DNA from: a virus | Lineage: Duplodnaviria; Heunggongvirae; Uroviricota; Caudoviricetes | Direction: 5' to 3' (one strand) | DNA length: 30,972 bases | IMG/VR virus record: IMGVR_UViG_2711768059_000015 | Part shown: positions 1-15,978 of the stretch, piece after piece | Numbering within the stretch: position 1 is the stretch's first letter | Layout: each line of letters begins with the position of its first letter | Notes under the pieces: model-generated | Told to the model about the DNA's origin: nothing | Databases searched by the model: none | The model's input: the letters and a program-made list of their open reading frames with translations, nothing else | Position numbers and translations under genes: made by a program

Positions 1-1314
1 CTAACTTACTGATTTTAATAGACCTCTTGTGTCACTTTGGTGACTATGGGACATCATTGGGACATAATCTGCCAGCTTCTGATTCAGCATGGCGATCTGT
101 TCTGCATTGCTGTCAGTCATCCATGCTCCGTATACATTGAACACCATCTGGGCACTTGCATGGCCCATCTGGCTGGCAATGAAGCTTGGATTTGCTCCGG
201 CAGATAATGACCAGCACGCATAAGTGTGTCGTGACTGGTATGCCTTTCGATACCTGATGCCAGCACGCTTAATGGCTGTTTCCCATGAGTCGCCAATGGA
301 ATCTACCTTGTAGATAAAACCTACCTGTTTGCTTTTTCTAACCACCTGGGGGTTAAATACGAAAGTACATTCATGATTCACTGAACGTCCATATTCACGT
401 AGTTGCACCTTGATGTGGTGCTGCTTACCCAGTCTTGTCATTTCAGCCTGATTTTTCAGGACACTGATAGCGGGCTGGATAAGATGCACAACCCTGTTTG
501 TACTTGCTTCAGTTTTAGGTAGAGTGAACTCACCGAGTTTCGTATAATTGCGCCTGATAGTAATTGTTCCTGCTTTCAGATCGATATCTTCCCAGGCCAG
601 GGAGACCAGTTCACCATGACGCATTCCTGTGTACACAGCCAATGACCACAGGTTTTTTGTCTGCTGATGCCGGCAAGCATCTATCAGGCGAATAAATTCG
701 TCACGAGTTAGCGGATCTGGCTCTGCCCTGGCTTTTTTAAGAGGCTTAATTCTCTCGAAGGGATTTGCTTCTAAGTAACCGTGATCTGCAGCAAACTGGA
801 ACATTCCAGCGATTGTCGTCATGTAATAATTTACTGTGACAACGCTTCGTCCTTTTACTCGAGCTTTACCTTTTGTTGGATTTTGGTATCCGGTCAGCAA
901 ATCTTTCCTGATATACAGCAATTCCTCTTTGGTCACCGTTGACACCAGTCTGCTACCTCCAATTTTCGGAACCATCGTTCTTGCAACGGATTTATAGCGA
1001 TTGAATGCATTTGCAGAGATTTCCATGCGTTTCAGATCCAGCCACTTTTCTTCAAGTTCTTTCACCGTAATTTCTTTTTTATTTACCCCAAAAGCCTTGA
1101 GGTTAGGAGAGTCAGGGAACTGCGCAGCATAATCAAAGTTTCCTGTACGAATGGCAAAACATACAGATGTCCGCAGCTCTCCGGCGATCTTCCTGTTCTT
1201 GACAGTGTCAGGGACACCAAGATTTTCCCTGACACGTTTACCTTTAAAATTAAACCAGATGCGTAATGTGCCGCCGTGGTTTTCGACGCCTGTTGGATAT
1301 TTGACTTTATCCAT
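1..1314 (-). CDS. int: Phage integrase, tyrosine recombinase family
   Basis: Complete 437-aa ORF with stop at 1-3. GGAGGT RBS 5 nt upstream of the ATG at 1314. C-terminal region has the R..H..R..Y-type catalytic pattern (RHTYA, GHAS, VYGAWM). Sits beside an excisionase-like gene at the prophage end. Confidence 0.9.
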   Translation of the reverse strand: MDKVKYPTGVENHGGTLRIWFNFKGKRVRENLGVPDTVKNRKIAGELRTSVCFAIRTGNFDYAAQFPDSPNLKAFGVNKKEITVKELEEKWLDLKRMEISANAFNRYKSVARTMVPKIGGSRLVSTVTKEELLYIRKDLLTGYQNPTKGKARVKGRSVVTVNYYMTTIAGMFQFAADHGYLEANPFERIKPLKKARAEPDPLTRDEFIRLIDACRHQQTKNLWSLAVYTGMRHGELVSLAWEDIDLKAGTITIRRNYTKLGEFTLPKTEASTNRVVHLIQPAISVLKNQAEMTRLGKQHHIKVQLREYGRSVNHECTFVFNPQVVRKSKQVGFIYKVDSIGDSWETAIKRAGIRYRKAYQSRHTYACWSLSAGANPSFIASQMGHASAQMVFNVYGAWMTDSNAEQIAMLNQKLADYVPMMSHSHQSDTRGLLKSVS

Positions 1315-1369
1315 TGATACCTCCAGACGCCCAAGAGCGATACGAGCTTACATATTTCATGGTATTAAA

Positions 1370-1606
1370 TCACCCAGGTTGTTTGTTTTTCATTGAAGAG
1401 ACCCAGGCATCTATTGCTTTTCTGTTATACATACATTCACTGGAAGGTTTTGGATTACCGTCTGGCGATACGTGAATATACTCTCTTCCTACCATCCAGC
1501 ATTCTTTCCGGGCTCGGAGAATTGTGCCAGGTTTGAGCCCGGTAATTGCGATAAGAACGCTTTCACAAACCCATTCATTGGGAGCCAGTTGAATCACATT
1601 GCCCAT
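1370..1606 (-). CDS. xis: Excisionase-like small DNA-binding protein (recombination directionality factor)
   Basis: 78 aa, directly upstream of int on the same strand. TGAGGT RBS. The EW...R...W..GREY pattern resembles the lambda Xis winged-helix motif. Confidence 0.6.
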   Translation of the reverse strand: MGNVIQLAPNEWVCESVLIAITGLKPGTILRARKECWMVGREYIHVSPDGNPKPSSECMYNRKAIDAWVSSMKNKQPG

Positions 1607-1614
1607 GTATTACC

Positions 1615-1761
1615 TCACACAACACTCAGCCCACGGCAGTGGCACCACACTTCAAACATTCGTTTCACAACTTCACGGCAGTAGAAACCGTCAACATCTC
1701 GCGTCAGGTCATAACGATTGCCGTAACGCTGGCGTACCCATAGCTCAAACGCTTTATTCAT
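1615..1761 (-). CDS. Small hypothetical protein (48 aa, Cys/His-containing)
   Basis: Not in the ORF track (<60 aa). ATG at 1761 preceded by an AAGGAAG RBS; stop at 1615-1617. Tightly packed between xis and the upstream gene (3-nt gap to its stop). Product MNKAFELWVRQRYGNRYDLTRDVDGFYCREVVKRMFEVWCHCRGLSVV. Confidence 0.35.
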   Translation of the reverse strand: MNKAFELWVRQRYGNRYDLTRDVDGFYCREVVKRMFEVWCHCRGLSVV

Positions 1762-1764
1762 TCG

Positions 1765-2007
1765 CTACTTCCTTTTCATGGCTCGTAATTTTTTCAGATG
1801 AGCTTCCTGCTCTGTTTCTGCCAGAATTTGTCGGTATTCCTGGTGATCGATCCGTTCAAACGATTCATTAAAATCGTTCATTTTTACCGATTGTGTTCGC
1901 CCATCCATTCTTCTGTACAACACGGTGTTATTTATGCAGCGAATAATTTTTACCGGGTAACCGGCACTGTCGGTATACAGTTGTCCCTGATTAATCAAAG
2001 CAAACAT
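1765..2007 (-). CDS. Hypothetical protein (80 aa)
   Basis: Internal ATG at 2007 of track ORF 1765-2130, with an AGGAG RBS 6-10 nt upstream. The longer 121-aa version would overlap the upstream gene. No family recognised. Confidence 0.45.
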   Translation of the reverse strand: MFALINQGQLYTDSAGYPVKIIRCINNTVLYRRMDGRTQSVKMNDFNESFERIDHQEYRQILAETEQEAHLKKLRAMKRK

Positions 2008-2038
2008 TTTTTCTCCTGCTCTCTGAATAGTGAGAACT

Positions 2039-2410
2039 TCAGAGCCGTATGTTTGTAGCGGGTTCAATACTGATAATTTCTGCTGAGATAAGCATCCCGG
2101 CAAGCCAGAGTTCTCCGGACAGGTCTTCATCCTGACATATCAGTTCGCCAATATTAATGGTGGCCATGATATCTGTTTCCCCTGTGCGCTCATCCTTGAC
2201 TTCTTCATAAGGCAGCGTTGCGTACAGGCTTTCAATAGCGCAACTGATAACATCCAGTCCGGTCAGATTGCCGCCGACAGTAACTTCGAATGTTTCGCGG
2301 TATTCCCATAGTCCGAAAGTTAATCGAACGGTTTGGTTTGCCATGCGTCCGCATGACGTCAGATTCGGGTCATAGTTCATTATTTGCGGTTGAGTATTCT
2401 GGGTGTTCAT
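2039..2410 (-). CDS. Hypothetical protein (123 aa)
   Basis: Track ORF 2039-2485 trimmed to the ATG at 2410 (MNTQNTQ...), which has an AAGGGA RBS at good spacing and does not overlap the SPFH gene. No family recognised. Confidence 0.5.
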   Translation of the reverse strand: MNTQNTQPQIMNYDPNLTSCGRMANQTVRLTFGLWEYRETFEVTVGGNLTGLDVISCAIESLYATLPYEEVKDERTGETDIMATINIGELICQDEDLSGELWLAGMLISAEIISIEPATNIRL

Positions 2411-2450
2411 CTGCATTTCCCTTAGCCCGGCGGCCTGCCGGGCATATAAG

Positions 2451-3278
2451 TTATTTAATCTGGATAAATGGTGTATTGGCACCACTGGTCATGTATTGCG
2501 GCAGTGTACCGTTCCACTTGTTGATGGCTTCCAGCTCCATGACGCCTGGGTTCTGGCGTAGAGCTTCGCCGCGTAAACGAATGGCATCGGCTTCTGCCTG
2601 GGCTTTTGTTCGAATGGCATCAGCCTGTCCGGCAGCTTCCGCACGTAGCATGTTGGCCTCCGCTTCACGTTGCTTGACTTCCTGCTCGCGCTGCAGGGTT
2701 TTCTGGTTTGCCGTGACTTTGGCGTTAATGCTGTCGATAACGGTTGGAGGGTATTCCGGTTTACCTACATAAGAGAGGCTCATTACCTGAATGCCGATGG
2801 GTGTCATCTCTTCCTGAATGTCTTTAAGTGCGGCATCCAGTAGTTCAGACTTGCCGCCGTCGATAAATTTGTCAGTGGTCATTTTGCTGGCCAGCCGATT
2901 GAGTGCGTCGGCAATTTTCTGGCGCAGGTCAGTGTCGGTAATGTCATCCACGCCTTTGCGGTAGGTCTGAAACACCGTGGTAACTTTGGATGGATCAACT
3001 TTGTAGGCCACACCGATGTGATAGCCGATGGTTGTACCGTCACTCATCTGGAAACTGAACGGTTCATCGTAGGTCTTCATTTGTTTGAAGGTGGGGAAGA
3101 TATAAACTTCAGTATTCCAGCCAGTCCAGTAGCGACCAACACCGACCACCTCACCGACACCTTTGTCGTCGCCTAGTTTATTTACCTTGATGCCAACATT
3201 ACCTGGTTCAACGCGATCGCAACCGACAAGGCCAATAGTCGGCAGAACAATGGCTAAAGCAAAAATAATTTTTTTCAT
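2451..3278 (-). CDS. SPFH/band-7 (prohibitin/HflK-C-like) domain lipoprotein
   Basis: 275 aa. N-terminal signal peptide with lipobox (LVGC). Central band-7 core and a C-terminal Ala/Glu/Arg/Gln-rich coiled coil typical of SPFH proteins. AAGGA RBS. Its start overlaps the upstream small membrane gene's stop (ATGA). Confidence 0.8.
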   Translation of the reverse strand: MKKIIFALAIVLPTIGLVGCDRVEPGNVGIKVNKLGDDKGVGEVVGVGRYWTGWNTEVYIFPTFKQMKTYDEPFSFQMSDGTTIGYHIGVAYKVDPSKVTTVFQTYRKGVDDITDTDLRQKIADALNRLASKMTTDKFIDGGKSELLDAALKDIQEEMTPIGIQVMSLSYVGKPEYPPTVIDSINAKVTANQKTLQREQEVKQREAEANMLRAEAAGQADAIRTKAQAEADAIRLRGEALRQNPGVMELEAINKWNGTLPQYMTSGANTPFIQIK

Positions 3279-3463
3279 CTTTTATCCTTAGTGAAAGAAA
3301 GACCCTTGTAAATGGCATAAATGCAGGGCGGGGTCAGAAACGCCAGTGCAAAGCCAGAAATAACTGCTATCGTATCCTTCATGGATATAAGGAACGGAAC
3401 GAATAATCCGTAAATGCATGCGATAATTGCCAGTAAAATTACTATTTTGAAATACAGTCTCAT
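3275..3463 (-). CDS. Small two-helix membrane protein (62 aa), translationally coupled to the SPFH gene
   Basis: Strongly hydrophobic sequence with two predicted TM helices. Stop overlaps the SPFH start (ATGA). Confidence 0.55.
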   Translation of the reverse strand: MRLYFKIVILLAIIACIYGLFVPFLISMKDTIAVISGFALAFLTPPCIYAIYKGLSFTKDKR

Positions 3464-3486
3464 TGGTCTGTGGTATCCCGATATTT

Positions 3487-3594
3487 TTAACCGACTGACA
3501 GCGCAATAAAGAGAATAATGATTTCAGTTAGTGTCAGCACTGTGGCAAGGATTAAAATCAGTTTTACTCTGTTTAATTCACGGTTGCTTTTCAT
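3487..3594 (-). CDS. Tiny single-TM membrane peptide (35 aa)
   Basis: Not in track. ATG at 3594, stop at 3487-3489. Product MKSNRELNRVKLILILATVLTLTEIIILFIALSVG (charged N-terminus then one hydrophobic helix). Candidate -10 TATAAT lies about 30 nt upstream on the minus strand. Confidence 0.35.
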   Translation of the reverse strand: MKSNRELNRVKLILILATVLTLTEIIILFIALSVG

Positions 3595-3639
3595 ATAAAC
3601 GGTTAGTAAAAAATGGAAGAATTATAGTCTTCTTAATAT

Positions 3640-4221
3640 TTAATGTGTCACTGGCGCTTCTGGCATACCATGAGTATTCAGGTCGTTAATCATTTCATCC
3701 AGAAGGAGTTCAAGCCCTTCGCGCCCCATAGCAGAGAGAATGAAACCATTATCAGGATCTGCGATGAGCATTTTTTGATAGAGAAACAGAACTCGCCCCA
3801 TGCCTTCAGTTTCGCCATATTTTTCAATAAATCCCCATTCGACATGGTTTTGCAGGGCAATGCGAAGTGGTCCTGGGTATATACTCATGCAACCATGTTT
3901 CCCCTTATAAATAACTGCGCGATCTGTCGTCCCGTTATCGTTAGGGATATCAATAGTGCCGTTCTTGTTTTCCTCTTCACTGATAAACGTTGCCACATAC
4001 AGCCAGCGCCATTGAGCAACCTTCATATCGACTGAAAATCTTCCCAGGAATCTGGCATCATCGGCTTCAGCAATACATTGCATGATTCTTAAGCCGTGCC
4101 AGTATGGATTGTCGTATTCACCATCATTAAGTCGCTGTACGGCCTCAACATAATCAATGGTTGTATTGTCAATTTTTATGCCATGAGCTGTCGCTTCTGG
4201 TTTGAATTCAAAATTGTTCAT
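3640..4221 (-). CDS. Hypothetical protein (193 aa), AT-rich accessory gene
   Basis: Track ORF 3640-4296 trimmed to the ATG at 4221 (MNNFEFKPE...) with an AAGGA RBS. Start overlaps the stop of the upstream 62-aa gene (ATGA). No family recognised. Confidence 0.6.
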   Translation of the reverse strand: MNNFEFKPEATAHGIKIDNTTIDYVEAVQRLNDGEYDNPYWHGLRIMQCIAEADDARFLGRFSVDMKVAQWRWLYVATFISEEENKNGTIDIPNDNGTTDRAVIYKGKHGCMSIYPGPLRIALQNHVEWGFIEKYGETEGMGRVLFLYQKMLIADPDNGFILSAMGREGLELLLDEMINDLNTHGMPEAPVTH

Positions 4222-4406
4222 AATGTTTGTTCCTTTGCTGGTGGAATAATCGTGTAACCCGCTCTTTTTGCCATCCACAGAAATGTATCCATGCAACCAA
4301 CGAATTCATTATCCAACAGATGTTTTGAGTAAATTACTTCACCATTTTCAATGGTTAGCAACACTCTTACTTTTTTATGTGTTATGTTCTGTTGTTTTTC
4401 TTTCAT
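4218..4406 (-). CDS. Hypothetical small protein (62 aa), coupled to the downstream 193-aa gene
   Basis: ATG at 4406 with a GGGAGA RBS. Overlapping stop/start with the next gene. Confidence 0.5.
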   Translation of the reverse strand: MKEKQQNITHKKVRVLLTIENGEVIYSKHLLDNEFVGCMDTFLWMAKRAGYTIIPPAKEQTL

Positions 4407-4410
4407 TTAT

Positions 4411-4524
4411 TTATCTCCCATATGCTTTGCGCAAATACAGGTTGGCTATATGAAGATAAGAATCTCCATGTTGTGCAATGAGGCAGGCAGTTTTATACGA
4501 TGCCTTATTTTTCAGGAAAGCCAT
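4411..4524 (-). CDS. Possible small basic protein (37 aa)
   Basis: Not in track. ATG at 4524 with an AGGAG RBS 8 nt upstream; stop at 4411-4413. Product MAFLKNKASYKTACLIAQHGDSYLHIANLYLRKAYGR. Could equally be an untranslated leader. Confidence 0.2.
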   Translation of the reverse strand: MAFLKNKASYKTACLIAQHGDSYLHIANLYLRKAYGR

Positions 4525-4610
4525 AACATAATCTCCTGCGAATAAAGGTTGCAACAATCCCCGGCGATAAAACCGTAATAAACATTCAGTGAATATTTAT
4601 TGTTATTGCG

Positions 4611-4802
4611 CTAATTCTTTTTGACTGCAGCTTTCGAATATTCACATGCAAAAGACAGGATTTCATCACCTAATGTTTTTGCATTCTGATTATTTGACAT
4701 CTGTAAAACTTGCGCAGCGCACAACAGACTATGAATGTTTATTGCAAATGAATCCGATGCCAGACAAATACCTTCGAAATTGTCATGGATATTACTATTC
4801 AC
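4611..4802 (-). CDS. Small protein (63 aa) paralogous to the N-terminal domain of the adjacent HTH protein
   Basis: GTG start at 4802 with AAGGAG RBS, the upstream gene's TAA stop, then a 5-nt spacer. The segment DSFAINIHSLLCAAQVLQ...LGDEILSFACEYS aligns with DSFALNIANLLSAVRTFH...LGIEVMEFIHEYA of the 150-aa neighbour at roughly 40% identity (by eye). Confidence 0.55.
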   Translation of the reverse strand: MNSNIHDNFEGICLASDSFAINIHSLLCAAQVLQMSNNQNAKTLGDEILSFACEYSKAAVKKN

Positions 4803-4807
4803 TGCTG

Positions 4808-5260
4808 TTACTCCTTTGCAGCATTGCTACCAGTCAATAACCACATCGGATCGCAGCCAAGAATATTTGCCAGTGGGATAAGCATACTGATGGTTGGTTC
4901 ATACTCTCCGCTCTCCCACTGGATGATGATTTCTTCATCAAGAGCGAGCAGCCTGGCGAGTTCGGCTGTTGTTAAGCCGCAGGCTTCGCGTTGGGTGCGA
5001 AGGTTAACCAGCCAGCTTTCAGGGAAGGATTGTTTTTGTTGTGCAGGAGAAGCAGCAGATAGAGCATATTCATGGATAAATTCCATTACCTCAATGCCCA
5101 GTTCCTTTGAGCGAGCACAATCCAGAAGATGGAATGTGCGTACAGCACTTAGCAAATTTGCAATATTTAATGCAAAGGAATCAAGTTCTAAGCCCTTAAG
5201 CGTAACACAGCCGCAGTTGATAAAATTAGTTGTTTCTGGAGTTGCTTTTAGTGTCTTCAT
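4808..5260 (-). CDS. Two-domain protein: unrecognised N-terminal domain plus C-terminal XRE-type helix-turn-helix
   Basis: 150 aa. C-terminal LRTQREACGLTTAELARLLALDEEIIIQWESGEYEPTISMLIPLANILGCDP matches the HTH_XRE pattern. First gene downstream of the candidate PL promoter; GGTGGA RBS. Confidence 0.7.
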   Translation of the reverse strand: MKTLKATPETTNFINCGCVTLKGLELDSFALNIANLLSAVRTFHLLDCARSKELGIEVMEFIHEYALSAASPAQQKQSFPESWLVNLRTQREACGLTTAELARLLALDEEIIIQWESGEYEPTISMLIPLANILGCDPMWLLTGSNAAKE

Positions 5261-5290
5261 ATATCCACCAACAATTTTAAATTGAATTAA

Positions 5291-5307
5291 ATCAAGTTAT
5301 AATTGAT
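5291..5307. promoter_or_regulatory. Candidate OL operator (17-bp ATCAA-N7-TTGAT palindrome)
   Basis: ATCAAGTTATAATTGAT matches ATCAAGTTAATATTGGT in the cI-cro intergenic region at 14 of 17 positions. Lies just downstream of the -10 of the candidate PL. Confidence 0.45.
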
Positions 5308-5313
5308 GGTGCG

Positions 5314-5342
5314 ATATTATGCTTTGGGAAATAGGCTGTCAA
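5314..5342 (-). promoter_or_regulatory. Candidate sigma-70 early-left promoter (PL-like)
   Basis: Minus strand reads TTGACA, 17-nt spacer, TAATAT (near-consensus -35 and -10). Located between the cI terminator and the first leftward gene. Confidence 0.5.
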
Positions 5343-5370
5343 GAAAAAATTGATATCGTATATTTCAGGC

Positions 5371-5394
5371 AGAAAAAAACGGGCAAAGCCCGTT
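5371..5394 (-). terminator. Rho-independent terminator downstream of cI
   Basis: Minus strand reads AACGGGC-TTT-GCCCGTT followed by a 7-T run, 12 nt after the cI stop. Confidence 0.55.
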
Positions 5395-5405
5395 AAAATC
5401 AAAGA

Positions 5406-6095
5406 CTAACCAAATCTGTTTATGTTGAATGGTACTGATGAGATCACTTTAGACTGGATATAAAGCAGAGCTAACCCCTCTTTTTCGATGCTCCATGGTT
5501 GATAATTGGGGTTATCAGATAACACCATGATTTTGCTTCCAATTTTTTGAAGCCTTTTCACGTAGCATTCTCCATCAAAACAAAATGCATAAATACCATC
5601 GCCATCAAAATAAGTTACTGTCTTATCAAGAAAAAGAAGGTCGCCAGGTGAGATTGTGGGAGCCATACTGTCTCCTCTGGCGTTACCTATTTCTATATTT
5701 TTGAATGCCCGATTTCCAACAAGACGTCGGGCATATTCAGGATCAAGTTCTATTGAGCGCACTACATCTATCAAGTCACCACGGACATGAGTTCCATCAC
5801 CGCAACTAAACTCAACATCAAGGACATTAAACACGACGCTATCTGTTCTTGTCTGGTGTTTCTCTTGCGAGGAAAAGGTTGGTGAGGAGTCTTCACCTAA
5901 GAACCAGGATTGTGGATAACCGCTAATCTCTGATAAATGCGCGAGCTTATCACTCCGTGGAAATGTTTTTCCTGTTGTCCAGTACTGCACTGATTGCGCA
6001 CTCACACCTAACTTGCGGGCCAGTTGAGCCTGAGTCCATCCTTTTGCTTTCAGCATCGCGGCTATTCGATTTTCCGTGTTTTTGACGTTCTTCAT
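5406..6095 (-). CDS. cI: CI-type prophage repressor (N-terminal XRE HTH, C-terminal S24 LexA-like peptidase domain)
   Basis: 229 aa. N-terminal HTH (GWTQAQLARKLGVSAQSVQYW). C-terminal S24 autocleavage domain with the catalytic Ser in GDSMAPT and a downstream Lys. Divergent from a Cro-like gene. Confidence 0.9.
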   Translation of the reverse strand: MKNVKNTENRIAAMLKAKGWTQAQLARKLGVSAQSVQYWTTGKTFPRSDKLAHLSEISGYPQSWFLGEDSSPTFSSQEKHQTRTDSVVFNVLDVEFSCGDGTHVRGDLIDVVRSIELDPEYARRLVGNRAFKNIEIGNARGDSMAPTISPGDLLFLDKTVTYFDGDGIYAFCFDGECYVKRLQKIGSKIMVLSDNPNYQPWSIEKEGLALLYIQSKVISSVPFNINRFG

Positions 6096-6228
6096 GACCA
6101 GGTCCTGTGGGTTTCTTTACAAGGATAAATCTTTACTTGATTTTAGTGTATTCGATCCTTTTGCAACTTGCATGTTAATTTAATCTTGATATATTCTTGT
6201 GTTATCAAGTTAATATTGGTGTTTTGCT
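6096..6228. promoter_or_regulatory. Divergent cI-cro promoter/operator region (PRM/PR with OR sites)
   Basis: 133-bp AT-rich intergenic region between divergent repressor genes. Candidate PR is TTGATA (6186-6191), spacer, TAATAT (6211-6216). Palindromic elements include CTTGATA-N11-TATCAAG (6185-6209) and the operator-like 17-mer at 6204-6220 overlapping the -10. Confidence 0.6.
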
Positions 6229-6528
6229 ATGAAAGGAAATGATTACGACGTACTTCGCGCATTAATTGCGCAAAATGCCATTGCACGAAACCTTGGTGTA
6301 ACTCCGCAAGCGGTGAATCAGTGGTTTTCAAAAAACACAATTCCTGCTCGTTTTGTTTTACGCGTATGTGAAGTAGTTGCATGGAAGGTCACGCCACATG
6401 GCTTAAGGCCAGATCTTTATCCTCACCCTGAAGATGGAATTCCTGATTCGTTACGCAAAATTTCAAATCCAAGCCTAGCGCGCACGGAAGATGGGCAGAG
6501 TGATTCATCAGAAATGTCCACGCGATGA
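6229..6528 (+). CDS. cro: Cro-like repressor (YdaS/Cro HTH family)
   Basis: 99 aa, divergent from cI. N-terminal HTH (LGVTPQAVNQWFS) typical of the YdaS/Cro-type family. Confidence 0.75.
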   Translation: MKGNDYDVLRALIAQNAIARNLGVTPQAVNQWFSKNTIPARFVLRVCEVVAWKVTPHGLRPDLYPHPEDGIPDSLRKISNPSLARTEDGQSDSSEMSTR

Positions 6529-6604
6529 ACGGTTACTGAACGAAAAAAGAAAAGCCGGGCCGCACTCCGTCAGCCCGACTTATTCTGATTAGTAAGGGGA
6601 TTTC

Positions 6605-7459
6605 ATGATGATCAATAAACAAAAAATAGTCAACCCTGAAAACTTGCCAGTTATTGAGTGGCAGGGAGTACGTGTAGTTACCACCGAAACGTTGGCGGCG
6701 GGATATGGAACAACGCCAATCCGTATACAACAGAACTACATTCGAAACGAAGATCGTTTCGTTGAGGGTAAACACTTTTTCAAAATCAGCGGTGATGAGC
6801 TGAAATCTTTCCGACTATCTTTTAGCGAGTCGGTTAATAAACATACAACATCACTTGTCCTCTGGACAGAACGCGGCGCTGCCCGCATGTCAAAAATCGT
6901 CGATACAGACGAGGCCTGGTCGTTCTTCGAAAAAATGGAGCAGGCGTATTTTCGTAAAGCAACGCCTTCTTCAAACACTATTCCAGACTTTGACGATCCG
7001 ATCGCTGCTGCTGAAGCGTGGATTGAAGCCAAAAAATCCGAACGCCTTGCTCTCGGGTATGCAGAGCGTCAGGCTCGCTACATCAGCAAACTCGAAAGCC
7101 ATCTCGCCGATGGCATCACTCCTGTGCAGTTCTGCAAACAACTCAACGGTGTAAACACTCGTCAGATTAATGCGTTCCTTGAAGAGCGTAACTGGCTGTA
7201 TGACGACCGTCCGGAGGCTATGTATCCGCGCTGGCGTGTAAAAGCGTATGCACGTGACCAATACCTGACTGAGCGTTCTGGGCAGGTTGAGCAGGAAAAC
7301 GGGGAAATGCGCGAGATTTTCAAACCACTCCTGAAGAAAAAAGGTGCCGCCTGGTTATATCGCCATTATCTGAACGGTGAACTACCGATGAAGAAAACAT
7401 GGGATGGGCTGTTTACCCATAACACTGAGCTCGCGAATCTTTTACAGGAGAACAAATAA
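6605..7459 (+). CDS. Antirepressor-like protein (N-terminal ORF6N domain, C-terminal KilA-C/Ant domain)
   Basis: 284 aa with AAGGGGA RBS. N-terminal region carries the ORF6N-type LWTERGA motif; the C-terminal half resembles the phage antirepressor Ant/KilAC domain. Confidence 0.75.
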   Translation: MMINKQKIVNPENLPVIEWQGVRVVTTETLAAGYGTTPIRIQQNYIRNEDRFVEGKHFFKISGDELKSFRLSFSESVNKHTTSLVLWTERGAARMSKIVDTDEAWSFFEKMEQAYFRKATPSSNTIPDFDDPIAAAEAWIEAKKSERLALGYAERQARYISKLESHLADGITPVQFCKQLNGVNTRQINAFLEERNWLYDDRPEAMYPRWRVKAYARDQYLTERSGQVEQENGEMREIFKPLLKKKGAAWLYRHYLNGELPMKKTWDGLFTHNTELANLLQENK

Positions 7460-7668
7460 TGCAAACCAAGACGTGTGTAACTGGTGATGTCGATCTGAAA
7501 CCTTGCCCGTTCTGCGGAAATCCGGAAGTACAACTCATTGAGGTGAAATATTTTCTGGATGGCGATGATGGTTATTACGTCGCATGTACTTGCTGTAACG
7601 CAAACCAGATCCCTGATTCGAAAGAACGTGCTGTTCATGACTGGAATCAGCGCGAAAACGCGGATTGA
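7459..7668 (+). CDS. lar: Lar-family restriction alleviation protein
   Basis: 69 aa with CPFCG and CTCC cysteine pairs characteristic of Lar-family zinc-ribbon proteins. Start overlaps the upstream stop (TAATG). Confidence 0.7.
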   Translation: MQTKTCVTGDVDLKPCPFCGNPEVQLIEVKYFLDGDDGYYVACTCCNANQIPDSKERAVHDWNQRENAD

Positions 7669-7685
7669 CGGCGAGTAGGTACAAA

Positions 7686-8537
7686 ATGATCCGCAACCAA
7701 CATATTGATTCTGCAATTTCGGGACGTTACACTGTTCCAGCACCTTATAAAGCGGGGGCCGGGCGTGGAAACCCGAAATTCAATATAGAGCACAACCGCG
7801 CTCATGCGGTTTTTTCGTGTCATGAGCATCGTTACGCCCAAATTATGGTGGGGCGTGCAGGGCCAACTTCGGTTGGGCCGGGTTCTATGTTGACCGGTAT
7901 TTCCACCCCTGTACGTCTCACCACCTATATGGTCGTGGAAAGCCTTGGTGGTGAGTTCATTGAATTCAACATAGGGGCTGTCACCATGACTACTCTCCCA
8001 ACCCTCTCTCAACCTGAAATCACGATTATCAATGGTCGTGTTGTCACCACATCTCTTGCAGTTTCTAATTACTTTACTAAACGGCATGAGCGGGTTTTAG
8101 ACAGAATTCGAAACCTCGAATGTTCCGCTGAATTTACTGAACACAATTTTGTGTTAAGTGAATACACCGACGCATCAGGCCGCAAACTTCCCTGCTACCA
8201 AATCACCCGCGACGGTTTTGCGTTTCTTGCCATGGGCTTCACTGGCAAACGTGCAGCCAGGTTCAAAGAGGCATACATCAACGCCTTTAACCAGATGGAG
8301 AAGAATTTATCTGGTGGTGACGCGGTTGATATGTCAGCTGTTGCACGAAACGCCAGAGGCGTATACCTGCATTTGCGTGAAATCCATCAAATCTGGAAAA
8401 GCCAGCTTTACCCCATGCTTAAGGCCGTTGAATCTCCGCTGGCGAGCAAGCTGTATGACCGTGTAGGAGATGCTGTTTTTGGCGCTGCACTTGTTGATTC
8501 CAGACTTAATGGTTCTGACAAGGAGGCGCACCCATGA
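7686..8537 (+). CDS. rha: Rha-family phage regulatory protein; start uncertain (ATG 7686 or ATG 7986)
   Basis: The Rha-like domain starts at the ATG at 7986 (MTTLPTLSQPEITIINGRVVTTSLAVSNYFTKRHERVLDRIRNL). The frame stays open upstream to 7686, but that 100-aa extension does not look like a typical domain. The track's 7665 start is a TTG. Confidence 0.6.
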   Translation: MIRNQHIDSAISGRYTVPAPYKAGAGRGNPKFNIEHNRAHAVFSCHEHRYAQIMVGRAGPTSVGPGSMLTGISTPVRLTTYMVVESLGGEFIEFNIGAVTMTTLPTLSQPEITIINGRVVTTSLAVSNYFTKRHERVLDRIRNLECSAEFTEHNFVLSEYTDASGRKLPCYQITRDGFAFLAMGFTGKRAARFKEAYINAFNQMEKNLSGGDAVDMSAVARNARGVYLHLREIHQIWKSQLYPMLKAVESPLASKLYDRVGDAVFGAALVDSRLNGSDKEAHP

Positions 8538-8758
8538 TTCGCCGCATCGTTAATTCCCTGTATCACCGATACAACCGTTGCCCCCGTGTGGGGCAGTGGT
8601 TCGCCACCAGCAACGGTCACGTTCTGCGGGTTTGCCTAGTCAACGCTGAAAGCCAGAAAGTCGTGTGCGAACTACAGGGGCGTAGCTACACCATCAGTTA
8701 CCCGCTGGCGGTATTTCTGTCTGGAAAAATGTTTAAGCGTCTGGGAGGTGCCGTGTGA
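8534..8758 (+). CDS. Hypothetical protein (74 aa)
   Basis: Overlapping start/stop (ATGA) with rha, and its stop overlaps the replication gene start. No family recognised. Confidence 0.45.
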   Translation: MIRRIVNSLYHRYNRCPRVGQWFATSNGHVLRVCLVNAESQKVVCELQGRSYTISYPLAVFLSGKMFKRLGGAV

Positions 8759-12035: not shown

Positions 12036-12278
12036 ATGACTTTTACCCCTGAACAATTACGCAAACAGGCGCAGGAAATGCTGCGACAGGCGGAACAACT
12101 GGAAAAATCAGGCGTAACAAAAGATGCCATTCGTCGGGATATGGTACCCGCGCTCAGAGAACTGATGCAGGCAAAACACCGCGCACAAAAAGCGGTGGAT
12201 GAGCTGGTGGATTGTGTGGCAGAGCTGGAAACAAAAGTTGGAAAATTTGAAAAATTGGTGCAGGGGGTACTGCGTTGA
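12036..12278 (+). CDS. Hypothetical coiled-coil protein (80 aa)
   Basis: ATG at 12036; predicted helical, charged sequence. No family recognised. Confidence 0.45.
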   Translation: MTFTPEQLRKQAQEMLRQAEQLEKSGVTKDAIRRDMVPALRELMQAKHRAQKAVDELVDCVAELETKVGKFEKLVQGVLR

Positions 12279-12649
12279 TGCGCTTAGAGTGTGTTTTACC
12301 TTACCCACCGACGGTGAACACCTACTGGCGTCGTCGTGGCAGCACATATTTTGTATCAAAAGCAGGGGAGCGTTATCGCCGGGATGTGGCGCTTATTGTT
12401 CGCCAGCAGCGACTGAAATTAAACCTGTCCGGAAGGCTGGCAATAAAAATTATTGCAGAGCCGCCGGATAAGCGCCGTCGTGACCTGGACAATATTCTGA
12501 AAGCACCACTGGATGCGCTGACGCATGCCGGACTACTTATAGACGACGAGCAGTTTGATGAAATCAATATTGTGCGCGGACTGCCTGTTCCTGGTGGGCG
12601 GTTGGGCGTGAAGATTTACGAAATTACAGGTGATAACGATGGTGCGTGA
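12278..12649 (+). CDS. rusA: RusA-family Holliday junction resolvase
   Basis: PPTVNTYW and RRRDLDN motifs typical of RusA. ATG at 12278 overlaps the previous stop. Confidence 0.85.
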
Positions 12650-13025
12650 TATTCAGCAGGTTATGGAGCGGTGGGGATCATGGGCTGCGAACAATCACGA
12701 AGATGTGTCATGGGCGTCAATCGCTGCTGGTTTTAAAGGATTAATCCCGCCGAAAGTGAAATCACGCCCTCAGTGTTCTGATGATGATGCAATGATAATT
12801 TGTGGCTGTATGGCCCGGTTGAACAAGAAAAATCAGGATTTGCACGATTTGTTGGTGGATTATTACGTAGGTGGAATGACTTTTATGGGGTTGGCACGAA
12901 AGCATGGGTGTTCGGATACCTGTATTGGCAAGCGCCTGCAGAAAGCGGAAGGGGTTATTGATGGCATGTTGATGATGCTTGATATCCGACTAGAGATGGA
13001 CAGATACGTAGAACGAATCATGTAG
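12639..13025 (+). CDS. Q: Late gene antiterminator Q-like protein
   Basis: About 128 aa, Cys-rich (CSDDD...ICGC...C..C). Canonical position before a promoter plus terminator pair and the late genes. ATG at 12639 with AGGTGA RBS. Confidence 0.65.
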
Positions 13026-13029
13026 GAGC

Positions 13030-13059
13030 TTGACCAGACACATTGTCCGGGGCTATATT
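13030..13059 (+). promoter_or_regulatory. Candidate late promoter PR' (Q utilisation region follows)
   Basis: TTGACC, 18-nt spacer, TATATT, immediately after Q. Downstream hairpin CGCCAG-N6-CTGGCG (13066-13083) could be part of a qut-like site. Confidence 0.45.
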
Positions 13060-13120
13060 CCTCACGCGCCAGCAAAATCTGGCGTCGGGATTGGCGTCCC
13101 GGATGAAAAAGGCGACAACA

Positions 13121-13140
13121 GACGCGCCAGCGTCTTTTTT
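13121..13140 (+). terminator. Rho-independent terminator (tR'-like) downstream of PR'
   Basis: GACGC-GCCA-GCGTC hairpin followed by TTTTTT. Predicts a short leader RNA of about 75 nt from PR'. Confidence 0.5.
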
Positions 13141-13298
13141 ATTGTCGTTTGCACTGTCACATCTCAATGGTGGGCTGTGTGGGGGCGGAGCGATCCGCGC
13201 CGGTTCCTTTTTCCCGGTTACGCCAACCCTGCACAGTTCACCACCATACTGATTGGCGTCAGCAGTGGTGATGATTCACATAGAAAAAGGATCATCCT

Positions 13299-13787
13299 AT
13301 GGCTATTCAAATCTCAGTTGAAACTCTTTCCCCGATCACCCATAACCAAATCCCTGTCATTACTACCGAGCTTTTGGCACAACTTTATGGCACCGAAACT
13401 AATAACATCAAAGTGAACTATACACGCAATGCCGAGCGTTTTGTTTGTGGGAAACACTACTTCAAATTGGAAGGGGCTGAGTTGCGGGAATTTAAGAACA
13501 AGGTTACTCAAAGTAACTTAGTTGCACCGCGTACAAAGCACCTCATCCTCTGGACAGAACGCGGAGCAGTCCGTCACGCCAAAATGCTGGAAACCGATCA
13601 GGCGTGGGAAGTGTTCGAAAAACTGGAAGACTGTTATTTCAGCCAAAAACAACCACCAGCAGCACAAAACACCCCAACCCAAAATGATGGATGCGCATTA
13701 CTGATCCACTTCGATAAACACGGTCAGGTCGACTTCACGGAAAAACTACCCGCCGATGCGATGGTATGCACTCTGGAACGGTTTTAA
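13299..13787 (+). CDS. ORF6N-domain protein (antirepressor N-terminal domain only)
   Basis: 162 aa. Paralogous to the N-terminus of the 6605-7459 protein (shared NY.RN.ERFV.GKH.FK and LILWTERGA motifs). AAAGGA RBS. Confidence 0.7.
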   Translation: MAIQISVETLSPITHNQIPVITTELLAQLYGTETNNIKVNYTRNAERFVCGKHYFKLEGAELREFKNKVTQSNLVAPRTKHLILWTERGAVRHAKMLETDQAWEVFEKLEDCYFSQKQPPAAQNTPTQNDGCALLIHFDKHGQVDFTEKLPADAMVCTLERF

Positions 13788-13862
13788 AAATTTTCCCCGA
13801 ACGCTTTACGATCGTAAAAAGTTGAATATCCTGTTAAGAGTGGTTACTACGCCAAACAGCTT

Positions 13863-13889
13863 AAACCCGCCACTGAGCGGGTTTTTTTA
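13863..13889 (+). terminator. Rho-independent terminator
   Basis: AACCCGC-CACTGA-GCGGGTT followed by a T7 run. Confidence 0.6.
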
Positions 13890-14010
13890 TGCCTGAAAAA
13901 CGGTACAGGACGTTAAACGCGCTGGTGGTTGCGAATACTGGTCTTTCGGCTTGTATTTTTGTAAATCGATATATACTTATCTTGTGACCAGTAATGTCAG
14001 GGCAATTGAT

Positions 14011-14754
14011 ATGAATGAAGCTTGTTCTGTTGTTTTTGTTCATTCCCCGTTTGTTGTGCTCTTTGAAGGAAAAGAGCTCTCTCTGGAAAGTGGTAGTGCA
14101 CTTCTTGTCAGGGGGGGAGCTGGATCGTTATTGCCCTTTTCGGAATGTTTTCGGCGAATAAGTCTCAGTGAATCGACAATTATCCGTTACCTGTTGTGTG
14201 GAGACGAAAAACAGGATGTAGTTTTAGTCCGGCAAATACCACGATATCTTTGCGTGAGTTTTCCCAAGGCAGAATTGATGGGCATCCTGATTGATTATCT
14301 TTGTGAGGAAAAGATTCATACGGACAATTTAGCGGAAATGCTTTCCTTTTCGTGTCTGGCGTTTTTCTCATCAGAGAAAATGTTTTCGTCGTTTCTGACC
14401 GCGTGTATTGGCAATATTAGTGACAGGCTTAGTGCATTGTTTCGTACGGACATTGCAGCAAACTGGACTCTGAGAGATGTGTCTTCGCGGTTATGTATCA
14501 GTGAAAGTTTGTTAAAAAAAAGACTGAAAGAAGAAGGCACCTGTTTCAGTGAGTTGTTGCTTACAGAGAGAATGAGAATGGCAGCAATGCTGTTGAATCA
14601 ATCTCGTTGCGCCATCAACAGAATCGCTGCTCAGTGTGGCTATAATTTTACATCTTATTTTATCAGCGTATTCAGGAGTTATTTTGGTGTTACACCGGCA
14701 GGTTACAGGATGGCTGCATTCAATGAGATGAGTTTAAGTGTTACTCAAGAATAA
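14011..14754 (+). CDS. AraC-family transcriptional regulator, AppY-like (cargo/moron gene)
   Basis: ATG at 14011. N-terminus MNEACSVVFV and C-terminal AraC HTH (SESLLKKRLKEEGTCFSELL...AAQCGYNFTSYFISVFRSYFGVTP) closely resemble the E. coli prophage-encoded regulator AppY as I recall it. Markedly AT-rich relative to its neighbours; flanked by terminators. Confidence 0.8.
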   Translation: MNEACSVVFVHSPFVVLFEGKELSLESGSALLVRGGAGSLLPFSECFRRISLSESTIIRYLLCGDEKQDVVLVRQIPRYLCVSFPKAELMGILIDYLCEEKIHTDNLAEMLSFSCLAFFSSEKMFSSFLTACIGNISDRLSALFRTDIAANWTLRDVSSRLCISESLLKKRLKEEGTCFSELLLTERMRMAAMLLNQSRCAINRIAAQCGYNFTSYFISVFRSYFGVTPAGYRMAAFNEMSLSVTQE

Positions 14755-14778
14755 TTGAATTTTGCACTCATTGAAAAC

Positions 14779-14804
14779 AGGCTCGCTGCGGCGGGCCTTT
14801 TTTA
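14779..14804 (+). terminator. Rho-independent terminator
   Basis: GC-rich hairpin (GGCTCGC...GCGGGCC) followed by TTTTTT. Confidence 0.5.
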
Positions 14805-15591: not shown

Positions 15592-15593
15592 AT

Positions 15594-15971: not shown

Positions 15972-15978
15972 ATAAAGC

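What the first reader, a model, noticed from the sequence alone, without database searches (positions are those of the whole stretch)
1615..5260. Leftward early operon has no recognisable recombination or kil/cIII/N functions
Between xis and the immunity region I see none of the hallmark proteins: no exonuclease with Bet/RecT/Erf-type annealase, no Gam, and no Arg-rich N-like antiterminator. The roughly 3.6 kb are filled by ten or eleven small unknown genes plus the SPFH operon. Either the recombination module has been replaced by accessory cargo, or these unknowns include diverged functional analogues.
Basis: inference. Interest (0 to 1): 0.4.

Follow-up and report, generated by a model that had tools for sequence, protein, structure and literature searches.

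The report
Compact phiP27-type early-left prophage operon
This stretch is the short leftward early operon of a well-known type of E. coli prophage (phiP27-like). It lacks the recombination, Kil/cIII and N genes of phage lambda, but this holds for the whole phage lineage and is already visible in public annotation, so the finding is correct and ordinary.

Summary
Window 1615-5260 holds 10-11 tightly packed minus-strand genes between xis and the cI repressor. None matches an exonuclease, an annealase (Redbeta/RecT/Erf/Rad52), Gam/Abc, Kil, cIII or an N-like protein. Searches used were Pfam, PHROGs, NCBIfam, PADLOC, PDB sequence and profile searches, direct comparison with lambda/P22/TL-2011c proteins, and AlphaFold+Foldseek of the two largest unknowns. 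There is no Arg-rich ORF, no boxA enrichment and no strong intrinsic terminator in the operon.

The region is 95% identical to phage phiP27 (sequenced 2002) and 100% identical to an E. coli chromosome. The promoter-proximal block occurs in 410 of 5426 complete E. coli genomes. Eighty related viral loci and about ten annotated relatives, including isolated phages, all lack these functions. It is therefore a lineage trait, not a recent swap.

Layout: pL/oL, XRE regulator, its N-domain paralogue, three conserved unknowns (one 193 aa, confidently modelled, with no structural match), a variable cargo slot (here an SPFH lipoprotein cassette plus DUF5406), DUF4222, p48, xis, int. RusA in the right operon is the only recombination enzyme. 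Non-homologous small analogues (Gam-, Kil- or cIII-like) cannot be excluded. Interest is low.

The parts
1615..1761 (-). 48-aa basic protein (phrog_3871), xis-proximal, conserved across the lineage
   Evidence: PHROG 7e-36. Present in 77 of 80 related loci and in all E. coli-phage relatives. No Pfam or NCBIfam hit.
1765..2007 (-). DUF4222 protein (80 aa; the ORF runs on to 2130, but the family match and the RefSeq start are at 2007)
   Evidence: Pfam DUF4222 2e-16, phrog_285 4.5e-33. Homologues lie next to xis in Stx phage TL-2011c, which does carry Kil/Gam-like/RecT/Exo/SSB.
2039..2410 (-). DUF5406 protein (123 aa, pI 4.05), part of the variable cargo slot
   Evidence: Pfam 2e-21, phrog_3409 1e-51. 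AF2 pLDDT 86 with no Foldseek PDB match, and the profile finds nothing in PDB. In a Pseudomonas luteola prophage it coexists with ERF+SSB. One metagenomic DUF5406-Lar fusion exists.
2451..3278 (-). SPFH/Band-7 lipoprotein (275 aa). Lipobox LVGC with Asp at +2, so a predicted periplasm-facing inner-membrane lipoprotein. SPFH domain followed by a coiled-coil tail.
   Evidence: Pfam Band_7 6e-31 (108 bits against a cut-off of 23.6), phrog_200 'lipoprotein' 1e-114. The closest solved structure is E. coli HflK at 2e-4. NCBIfam HflC/HflK scores are far below cut-off. No PADLOC hit. The lipobox is read directly from the sequence.
3275..3463 (-). 62-aa protein with two hydrophobic helices; its stop overlaps the SPFH start by 4 nt (translational coupling)
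   Evidence: phrog_1130 'membrane protein' 1e-23. GRAVY 1.18. Co-occurs with SPFH in 66 of 80 loci. No NfeD domain.
3487..3594 (-). Doubtful 35-aa hydrophobic ORF
   Evidence: No SD sequence, never called in the 15-billion-protein collection, no family hit.
3640..4221 (-). p193: 193-aa acidic protein of an orphan family (phrog_1515), conserved in the lineage
   Evidence: phrog_1515 4e-93. Only 133 representative clusters among 1.84 billion proteins. AF2 pLDDT 89.7, pTM 0.84. Foldseek against PDB and BFVD gave nothing at E<=0.001, with TM about 0.2. Pfam, PHROG and PDB profile scans of 57 members found no known family.
4218..4406 (-). p62: 62-aa protein (phrog_340); its stop overlaps the p193 start by 4 nt
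   Evidence: phrog_340 3e-24, with only weak hits to the C-terminal parts of anti-repressor PHROGs. Conserved at 40-100% identity in 79 of 80 loci. No PDB hit.
4411..4524 (-). p37: conserved 37-aa basic protein, not annotated by PGAP in the closest relative
   Evidence: tblastn conservation of 52-93% in all relatives and in 78 of 80 loci. This exact 37-aa product is called in many assemblies. AGGAGA SD is seen in the sequence.
4611..4802 (-). p63: 63-aa stand-alone paralogue of the N-terminal domain of the neighbouring XRE regulator
   Evidence: phrog_4587 1.7e-29. BLASTP against HTH150 residues 24-69: 39% identity, E 1e-8. HTH150 also hits phrog_4587 at 3e-7.
4808..5260 (-). HTH150: first gene of the pL operon, sitting where lambda has N. 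XRE-family regulator with an N-terminal domain (1-75) and a C-terminal HTH (87-141).
   Evidence: Pfam HTH_3 8.6e-10. phrog_4836 'CII-like regulator' 8e-77. NCBIfam DicA subfamily 1.7e-9, below cut-off. PDB matches to P22 C2 and 434 repressor HTH domains.
5291..5354 (-). pL/oL: sigma-70 promoter (-35 TTGACA 5342-5337, -10 TAATAT 5319-5314, minus strand) overlapped by two operator-like sites (5291-5307, 5338-5354)
   Evidence: Promoter scan 10/12. The motif ATCAAGN5ATTGAT has 12 matches against 3.6 expected, clustered at oL (2) and oR (3: 6125, 6174, 6204). Operators and the -10 are invariant in diverged relatives.
5378..5394 (-). Intrinsic terminator just after the cI stop codon, upstream of pL
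   Evidence: 7-bp stem with 5 GC pairs and a T-run.
12275..12649 (+). RusA Holliday-junction resolvase in the rightward operon: the only recombination enzyme in the window apart from Int/Xis
   Evidence: Pfam RusA 1e-15, phrog_34 1.6e-56. RefSeq annotation of the relative lists no recombinase elsewhere in the prophage.
7459..7668 (+). Lar restriction-alleviation protein: a function that lambda encodes on the left (ral) lies in the right operon here
   Evidence: Pfam Lar_restr_allev 5e-11.

Best explanation
Window 1615-5260 is the complete early-left (pL) operon of a phiP27-type lambdoid prophage integrated at yecE. It is a compact operon (3.65 kb, against about 6.4 kb from xis to N in lambda) that is ancestrally free of a recombinase and of N.

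Shown:
- A cI-type (S24) repressor gene is followed by a terminator.
- Next comes a consensus-like promoter overlapped by two operator copies that recur three times at oR.
- After about 47 nt comes a run of tightly packed or overlapping minus-strand genes ending in xis-int.
- The order is: XRE regulator (HTH150), p63 (a paralogue of its N-domain), p37, p62, p193 (a lineage-conserved block of unknown function, with p193 having no detectable structural relatives), a variable cargo slot (here the 62-aa membrane protein, a periplasm-facing SPFH lipoprotein and the acidic DUF5406), then DUF4222, p48, xis, int.

Inferred:
- After cI inactivation one polycistronic transcript runs from pL to int without a dedicated antiterminator, because no strong intrinsic terminator and no nut site are present. 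Late genes still use Q (12630-13025).
- Homologous recombination and concatemer processing are left to host RecA/RecBCD/RecF functions plus the phage RusA resolvase.
- HTH150 acts as an early transcription regulator, possibly modulated by p63 through the shared N-domain.
- The SPFH cassette is exchangeable moron-like cargo acting at the inner membrane (exclusion, or an HflKC-like membrane or protease scaffold).
For: Identity:
- 95.2% nt identity to phiP27 over window 1-5002, with the same gene order.
- 98.4% identity to an annotated E. coli prophage at yecE, and 100% to NZ_CP157152.
- The block 3640-5260 occurs in 410 of 5426 complete E. coli genomes.

Absence of Red, Gam, Kil, cIII and N:
- HMM libraries.
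- Direct comparison with lambda and P22 proteins.
- Arg-rich scan and boxA search.
- Rfam found nothing in 1300-6700.

Structure: confident AF2 models of p193 and DUF5406 have no PDB or BFVD match, and profile-against-PDB searches are negative.

Lineage trait:
- 0 of 80 related IMG/VR loci (1.14 Mb) hit any reference Exo, Bet, RecT, Erf, Gam, Abc, Kil, cIII, N or SSB.
- The annotated relatives phiP27 (whole genome), Stx1/Stx2 phages, phi467, PhiR49_2, CharmingMan, ST131 and 90-3040 prophages, and Citrobacter and metagenome prophages all lack them.
- Several of these are deposited as complete phage genomes, so the design is viable.

Modular layout: conserved ends and a variable middle.

Promoter, operators and terminator. 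No minus-strand intrinsic terminator was detected inside the operon.

Baseline: only 191 of 465 sequenced phages encode a recombinase (PMC3945230), so lacking one is common.
Against: - All functional statements are inferred; no expression or genetic data exist for these genes.
- Rho-dependent terminators cannot be predicted with these tools. Two weak hairpin+U-run elements exist (about 3632-3608 after p193 and about 4601-4570 after p63). Complete read-through without a factor is therefore not proven.
- Short proteins (37-80 aa) and the two acidic proteins (DUF5406 pI 4.05, p193 pI 4.8) could be non-homologous analogues of Kil, cIII, Gam or Ral, which no sequence or fold search would detect.
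- p193 is the size of an Erf/Sak-type annealase and contains beta-beta-beta-alpha elements. Foldseek insensitivity cannot be fully ruled out.
- The 80 IMG/VR loci are the closest relatives (>=66% identity) and are not independent samples.
Confidence: 0.8

Rival explanations
1. Hidden analogues: the lineage-conserved promoter-proximal block (p63, p37, p62, p193) and/or acidic DUF5406 provide recombination or host-control functions through proteins unrelated in sequence and fold to the lambda ones. Examples would be a new annealase, a RecBCD or restriction inhibitor acting as a DNA mimic, or Kil/cIII-like peptides.
For: - The block sits where lambda has N...exo and is conserved at 40-100% identity across phages with different immunity and replication modules.
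- p193 has a confident, well-folded model with no detectable structural relative.
- p193-bearing operons never carry a known recombinase.
- p193 and DUF5406 are strongly acidic.
- One DUF5406-Lar fusion exists.
Against: - No homology or fold similarity to any SSAP, nuclease or Gam.
- An acidic protein without basic patches is an unlikely ssDNA annealase.
- DUF5406 coexists with ERF+SSB in a Pseudomonas prophage, so it is not a recombinase substitute.
- The co-absence is explained by inheritance of the operon as one block.
- 59% of sequenced phages have no recombinase anyway.
Confidence: 0.1
2. Recent module replacement: an ancestor of this very prophage had a Red/RecET-type module that was displaced by the SPFH cassette.
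For: - The SPFH cassette (2008-3639) has higher G+C (0.48-0.50 against 0.40 for 3500-5500) and lies in the slot that differs between relatives.
- Other lambdoids with a DUF4222 gene next to xis carry Kil/Gam/RecT/Exo.
Against: - Relatives without the SPFH cassette carry other accessory genes in the slot, never a recombinase.
- No remnants or pseudogenes of exo, bet, recT or erf were found by tblastn in the window.
Confidence: 0.05
3. Decay: the prophage is defective and lost its recombination and N genes by deletion.
For: Cryptic prophages in E. coli often carry deletions in early regions (general knowledge).
Against: - Genes are intact, tightly packed and translationally coupled, with no IS or pseudogene in the window's operon.
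- The same architecture occurs in phage genomes deposited as complete isolates: phiP27, phi467, PhiR49_2, CharmingMan.
- The rest of the relative prophage has full replication, lysis and morphogenesis sets.
Confidence: 0.03

Closest known systems
Early-left region (L03-L10) of Stx2e phage phiP27 (NC_003356 / AJ298298)
   Same: 95.2% nucleotide identity over window 1-5002. Same int, xis, DUF4222, DUF5406, SPFH 'lipoprotein', p193 (L06) and p62 (L07) order. The whole phiP27 genome likewise has no annotated recombinase or N.
   Different: The promoter-proximal end diverges: phiP27 L08 is 121 aa and L10 is 138 aa, and the repressor type differs (identities of 62-78%). The window prophage has no stx genes, has lambda-like siphovirus tail genes rather than phiP27's sheath/baseplate genes, and has RusA.
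Lambda pL operon (N, ral, ea10, cIII, kil, gam, bet, exo, the exo-xis 'ea' genes, xis, int)
   Same: Same position and orientation relative to cI. A repressor-controlled promoter with repeated operators. The operon ends in xis-int. There is a variable accessory zone next to xis.
   Different: No N or nutL, and none of ral, ea10, cIII, kil, gam, bet or exo. The first gene is an XRE HTH regulator. The operon is 3.65 kb against about 6.4 kb. Restriction alleviation (Lar) and the only recombination enzyme (RusA) lie in the right operon.
Left operon of Stx phages of the TL-2011c / phi24B type
   Same: A DUF4222 gene (47% identity) lies directly next to xis.
   Different: Those phages carry Kil, a Gam-like protein, RecT, an exonuclease and SSB in an 11-kb left operon. 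The window has none of these.
HflK/HflC and other bacterial SPFH (Band 7) scaffold proteins
   Same: The 275-aa protein has a bona fide SPFH domain followed by an Ala/Glu/Arg-rich coiled-coil region. Like HflKC it is predicted to face the periplasm from the inner membrane. HflK is its nearest solved relative.
   Different: It is anchored by a lipobox rather than a transmembrane helix. Scores are far below the HflK/HflC equivalog cut-offs (23-25 bits against 134-159). It has no HflC-like partner and no NfeD partner, only a 62-aa two-helix membrane protein. Any link to FtsH is speculation.
DicA / P22 C2 / 434-type XRE repressors
   Same: The C-terminal 60 residues of HTH150 match HTH_3 and the DicA subfamily model, and match solved C2 and 434 repressor DNA-binding domains.
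   Different: The HTH is C-terminal rather than N-terminal. The N-terminal 75-residue domain is lineage-specific and is duplicated as the stand-alone p63. The score is below the DicA cut-off (37.6 against 101 bits). The gene is transcribed from pL, so it is not the prophage maintenance repressor.

Membership tests
Lambda Red / RecET / Erf-type phage recombination module | A single-strand annealing protein (Redbeta/RecT, Erf, Sak/Rad52, Sak4 or Gp2.5 family) | tested here: not met
   No Pfam, PHROG or NCBIfam hit for any ORF. 57 p193-family members have no SSAP hit. The p193 model has no PDB match. tblastn with Bet, Erf, RecT and ERF found nothing in the window or in 80 related loci.
Lambda Red / RecET / Erf-type phage recombination module | A partner 5'-3' exonuclease (YqaJ / lambda Exo PD-(D/E)XK, or RecE) | tested here: not met
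   No family hit. Lambda Exo and TL-2011c exonuclease gave no hit. No fold match.
Lambda Red / RecET / Erf-type phage recombination module | A RecBCD inhibitor (Gam, Abc1/Abc2) | tested here: inconclusive
   No homology to Gam, Gam-like or Abc proteins and no fold match for DUF5406 or p193. A non-homologous acidic inhibitor cannot be excluded without biochemistry.
N-type antitermination system | A small basic protein with an N-terminal Arg-rich motif encoded just downstream of pL | tested here: not met
   The first pL gene is an acidic XRE HTH protein (pI 4.76). No ORF in 1300-6700 reaches the 5 Arg in 12 residues of the lambda N and P22 gp24 controls. No PHROG or Pfam N hit.
N-type antitermination system | nut sites (boxA plus a boxB hairpin) between the promoter and the first gene, or after cro | tested here: not met
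   boxA-like matches are at chance level (11 against 11.5) and none lies in the 47-nt pL leader. No Rfam hit in 1300-6700.
Kil (FtsZ inhibitor) and cIII (FtsH inhibitor) peptides | Sequence homology to lambda or P22 Kil or cIII | tested here: not met
   blastp, phmmer and tblastn values are all noise. No PHROG hit. 0 of 80 related loci hit.
Kil (FtsZ inhibitor) and cIII (FtsH inhibitor) peptides | Functional activity: division block, or CII/FtsH protection | not testable with these tools
   This needs expression of p48, p37, p62, p63 and the SPFH cassette in E. coli.
phiP27-like early-left operon | Nucleotide identity and collinear gene order with phiP27 L01-L08 | tested here: met
   95.2% identity over 1-5002. 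Same order of int, xis, DUF4222, DUF5406, SPFH, p193 and p62. Protein identities are 89-98%.
SPFH / Band 7 superfamily (gene 2451-3278) | An SPFH domain above the Pfam gathering score | tested here: met
   PF01145 scores 108.3 bits against a cut-off of 23.6, over residues 22-208.
SPFH-NfeD operon | An adjacent NfeD-family membrane protein | tested here: not met
   The coupled upstream 62-aa membrane protein has no Pfam hit, so no NfeD domain. Its only hit is phrog_1130 'membrane protein'.
HflK/HflC FtsH-modulator equivalogs | A score above the NCBIfam equivalog cut-offs, and a paired HflK+HflC | tested here: not met
   25.5 and 23.4 bits against cut-offs of 134 and 159. It is a single gene.
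Known anti-phage defence systems (PADLOC) | A match to a defence-system protein model | tested here: not met
   The only hits are generic HTH matches of HTH150 to RmrA, HTH_VI and capH models. Nothing was found for SPFH, p193, DUF5406 or the others.

The most novel reading that the evidence does not exclude
The lineage-conserved promoter-proximal block may encode a previously unrecognised early-function set that replaces lambda's N...exo genes by unrelated proteins. The block is HTH150, p63, p37, p62 and p193, where p193 has a confidently predicted fold with no solved or viral-model relative. One possibility is that p193 and/or acidic DUF5406 act as new RecBCD or restriction inhibitors, or as a new recombination mediator. 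Another is that the periplasm-facing SPFH lipoprotein acts as an HflKC-like modulator of FtsH, a functional stand-in for cIII.
Probability: 0.1. Interest if true: 0.55.

Novelty: already known. Interest (0 to 1): 0.17.

Why it matters
It matters little for discovery. The sequence is 95-100% identical to deposited, annotated phage and E. coli records. Phages without their own recombinase are common (274 of 465 in the survey quoted in PMC3945230).

It is still useful as context:
- phiP27-type prophages are present in about 8% of complete E. coli genomes and include several Stx1/Stx2 converting phages. They depend on host recombination functions plus at most RusA, and run their early-left operon without N. 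This is relevant to how such Stx phages are induced, how they recombine with other prophages, and why they should be poor sources of recombineering functions.
- The analysis also defines a small set of conserved, completely uncharacterised early genes (p193, p62, p37, p63/HTH150) and an exchangeable cargo slot. These are reasonable targets for anyone studying this phage group.

Tried and rejected
- PADLOC defence models: only generic HTH hits.
- Rfam, at gathering score on the whole window and at E-value threshold on 1300-6700: nothing in the operon. The hits lie in the right arm.
- boxA search: chance level.
- Folding of the two larger intergenic gaps: only weak AU-rich hairpins, z-scores -0.5 to -0.7. 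I did not call them terminators.
- Foldseek of p193 against PDB and BFVD, and of DUF5406 against PDB: no match at E<=0.001. The ribosomal-protein 'hits' at E 0.1-1 with TM about 0.2 are noise.
- Weak single-sequence hits DUF5669 / TIGR02647 for p193 (E 0.004-0.009, below cut-off). They were seen in only 1 of 57 family members, so rejected.
- Pfam scan of longer p193-family members for informative fusions: none. One 973-aa tail-protein hit at E 4e-4 is probably spurious.
- PF17345 listed for two p193 homologues in precomputed tables: not reproduced at E<=0.01.
- The palindrome CAATTTTAAATTG in the pL leader as a second operator: not significantly repeated (7 against 3.5 expected; 8 of 100 shuffles reach 7).
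- The original phiP27 paper (Recktenwald & Schmidt 2002) could not be read, as it is not held. What it says about N or recombination is therefore not cited.
- The search for related loci with the diverse alignment A4 failed because no conserved stretch was found. It was repeated with A3.
- P22 Erf did not detect the Pseudomonas ERF by tblastn. The tblastn panel is therefore only sensitive to moderately close recombinases, and the HMM libraries carry the main weight.
- A prophage-encoded HflK/C-like SPFH protein of Pasteurella multocida is reported as a virulence factor (PMC9872710). Homology to the window protein was not tested, so it is only a lead.

Full report
WHAT THE WINDOW IS
The first 7.5 kb of the window match Stx2e phage phiP27 at 95.2% identity over positions 1-5002. 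They match a prophage integrated next to yecE (DUF72) in E. coli UR21/11-869 at 98.4% over the whole 7.5 kb. Positions 3640-5260 are 100% identical to E. coli UTAK-5, NZ_CP157152. The RefSeq annotation of the close relative shows a complete lambdoid prophage. On the left are int, xis, nine leftward CDS, and an S24 cI-type repressor. On the right are cro, ORF6N/KilAC, Lar, Ash/Rha, a replication initiator, DnaC-like and DnaB proteins, RusA and Q, followed by lysis genes, HNH, a P27-family terminase and HK97-type head and lambda-like tail genes.

CHECK OF THE OBSERVATION
The coordinates are exact. 1615 is the stop of the gene next to xis, and 5260 is the start codon of the first gene downstream of pL.

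All credible genes are on the minus strand:
- p48 (1615-1761)
- DUF4222 (1765-2007)
- DUF5406 (2039-2410)
- SPFH lipoprotein (2451-3278)
- a 62-aa membrane protein (3275-3463)
- a doubtful 35-aa ORF (3487-3594)
- p193 (3640-4221)
- p62 (4218-4406)
- a conserved 37-aa gene (4411-4524)
- p63 (4611-4802)
- a 150-aa XRE regulator, HTH150 (4808-5260)
These assignments rest. Plus-strand ORFs in the region hit nothing.

None of these proteins hits an exonuclease, SSAP, Gam/Abc, Kil, cIII or N family in Pfam, PHROGs or NCBIfam at E<=0.1, and PADLOC gave no defence-system match beyond generic HTH hits. I extracted the lambda and P22 left-operon proteins from the reference records and compared them directly with the window proteins and with the six-frame translation of the whole window. 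Only noise came back. No ORF in 1300-6700 has an Arg-rich motif comparable to lambda N or P22 gp24. boxA-like sequences are at chance frequency, and the pL leader is only about 47 nt. Rfam finds nothing in 1300-6700.

ARE THERE DIVERGED ANALOGUES?
Only p193 is large enough to be an annealase or nuclease.
- Its family is small and orphan: 133 representative clusters among 1.84 billion proteins, nearly all single-domain and 190-220 aa.
- Fifty-seven diverse members hit no informative Pfam or PHROG family, and the family profile finds nothing in the PDB.
- AlphaFold2 gives a confident model (pLDDT 89.7, pTM 0.84). Foldseek returns no match at E<=0.001 against 350,542 PDB chains or against BFVD, with best TM about 0.2.
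- The protein is acidic (pI 4.8).

DUF5406 (123 aa, pI 4.05) also gives a good model (pLDDT 86) with no PDB match. In a Pseudomonas luteola prophage it sits in an early operon that carries ERF and SSB, so it is accessory and not a recombinase substitute.

The remaining products are 37-80 aa. They are too small for an SSAP or exonuclease but not for Kil-, cIII- or Gam-like roles, which computation cannot exclude.

LINEAGE COMPARISON
- Annotated relatives all have the same kind of left operon and no recombinase, Gam, Kil, cIII or N. These are phiP27 (whole genome), Stx1a/Stx2a/Stx2d converting phages, phi467, PhiR49_2, CharmingMan, an ST131 prophage, strain 90-3040, a Citrobacter prophage and two metagenomic prophages.
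- In 80 IMG/VR loci carrying a p193 relative (1.14 Mb), tblastn with lambda Exo/Bet/Gam/Kil/cIII/N, P22 Erf/Abc/Arf/Kil/C3/gp24, TL-2011c Kil/Gam-like/RecT/Exo/SSB and a Pseudomonas ERF/SSB gave zero hits. The window's own left-operon genes were found in 60-80 of the loci.
- A presence matrix shows conserved ends and a variable middle. The conserved ends are p48 and DUF4222 next to xis, and p193, p62, p37, p63 and the HTH regulator next to pL.
- The variable middle is SPFH + membrane protein + DUF5406 in the window, phiP27 and some Stx2 phages. Elsewhere it holds Ea22, DUF551 and DUF4752, or MarR plus unknowns, or ParE-like plus unknowns.
- DUF4222 also sits next to xis in Stx phage TL-2011c, whose 11-kb left operon does contain Kil, a Gam-like protein, RecT, an exonuclease and SSB.

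The recombination module is therefore an optional lambdoid module that this lineage does not carry. Nothing indicates a recent replacement in this particular prophage. For scale, only 191 of 465 sequenced phages encode a recombinase (PMC3945230).

REGULATORY ANATOMY
A terminator follows cI at 5394-5378 (minus strand). A promoter follows, with -35 TTGACA (5342-5337) and -10 TAATAT (5319-5314) on the minus strand. The motif ATCAAGN5ATTGAT occurs 12 times in the window against 3.6 expected. Two copies overlap pL and three lie between cI and cro. These operators and the -10 are invariant in relatives whose flanks have diverged.

Genes in the operon are separated by a few bases or overlap by 4 nt (p62/p193, membrane protein/SPFH). 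No minus-strand intrinsic terminator is detected within it. Two weak AU-rich hairpins with U-runs lie after p193 and after p63. I infer N-independent read-through from pL to int. Late transcription uses a Q-family antiterminator.

WHAT THE GENES ARE
- HTH150 has a C-terminal XRE HTH (HTH_3 8.6e-10; DicA subfamily below cut-off; solved relatives P22 C2 and 434 repressor) and belongs to phrog_4836, which is labelled 'CII-like regulator'.
- Its N-terminal domain is duplicated as the adjacent stand-alone p63 (39% identity over 46 residues, E 1e-8). This suggests, without proof, a regulator/modulator pair.
- The SPFH protein has a true Band-7 domain (108 bits), a lipobox (LVGC) with Asp at +2, and a coiled-coil tail. 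By the textbook +2 rule it should be an inner-membrane lipoprotein facing the periplasm. Its nearest solved relative is HflK, at E 2e-4 only.
- The SPFH protein has no NfeD partner and no PADLOC match.
- I regard the SPFH cassette as exchangeable cargo. An HflKC-like effect on FtsH, which would mimic cIII, is an untested idea.
- RusA (12275-12649) is the only recombination enzyme besides Int/Xis. Lar (7459-7668) supplies restriction alleviation from the right operon.

VERDICT
'Diverged analogues' is unsupported for an annealase, exonuclease or N, and remains untestable for small functions. The feature is ordinary and already present in public annotated records.

The residual novelty lies in the uncharacterised conserved block, especially p193, whose predicted fold has no detectable structural relatives. 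I give about 10% to the possibility that it hides non-homologous analogues of lambda early functions.

Noticed in passing
window 7740-7928 (+) and 13053-13248 (+): There are two copies of an isrK + C4 antisense RNA module (the P1/P7 immI-type antirepressor control). The first is isrK at 57.7 bits plus C4 at 82.4 bits, lying inside the long Ash/Rha ORF 7665-8537. The second is c4-a1b1, isrK at 79.4 bits and C4 at 74 bits, lying just downstream of Q and upstream of a truncated ORF6N gene. The 'Ash' part of ORF 7665-8537 overlaps the RNA genes, so its annotated start is questionable.
   Followed up: no
window 6552-6633 (-): A strong minus-strand intrinsic terminator (6581-6552, 11-bp stem, 7 GC pairs, T-run) is preceded by a minus-strand promoter-like site (6633-6605). 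Both lie between cro and the ORF6N/KilAC gene. Together they could make a short oop-like antisense RNA of about 50 nt. There is no Rfam match.
   Followed up: partly
window 4611-4802 (-) and 4808-5260 (-): p63 is a stand-alone paralogue of the N-terminal domain of the adjacent XRE regulator (39% identity, E 1e-8). In phiP27 the corresponding gene, L08, is 121 aa. This may be a regulator/anti-regulator pair.
   Followed up: partly
window 4411-4524 (-): A 37-aa basic ORF with a strong Shine-Dalgarno sequence is conserved at 52-93% protein identity in all relatives and is called in many assemblies. PGAP did not annotate it in the closest RefSeq relative.
   Followed up: yes
protein P0156 (metagenome), related to window 2039-2410: One metagenomic protein fuses DUF5406 to a Lar restriction-alleviation domain. 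In the window, Lar is a separate gene in the right operon (7459-7668). This is a weak hint that acidic DUF5406 is linked to anti-restriction.
   Followed up: no
window 8534-8758 (+): A 74-aa protein (phrog_1153) just upstream of the replication initiator shows a weak DUF4222 match (E 0.034, below cut-off). It may be a distant second copy of the xis-proximal DUF4222 fold.
   Followed up: no
window 2000-3300 versus 3500-5500: G+C steps from about 0.49 in the SPFH/DUF5406 cassette to about 0.40 in the promoter-proximal block and immunity region. This fits the cassette being imported cargo.
   Followed up: partly
window 13000-30972 compared with phiP27 (L021): The same early-left operon is joined to different late modules. 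The window and its close relative have no stx genes and have lambda-like tail genes (tape measure, L, C40 peptidase, tip protein). phiP27 has stx2e, tRNAs and a sheath/baseplate (myovirus) tail.
   Followed up: no
cluster 6 (p48, window 1615-1761): The 90%-identity cluster that holds the 48-aa p48 also holds 80-aa proteins named DUF4222, and p48 matches the C-terminal half of the 80-aa phrog_17609. In some phages the p48 sequence therefore seems to be part of a longer product. I have no explanation for this.
   Followed up: no
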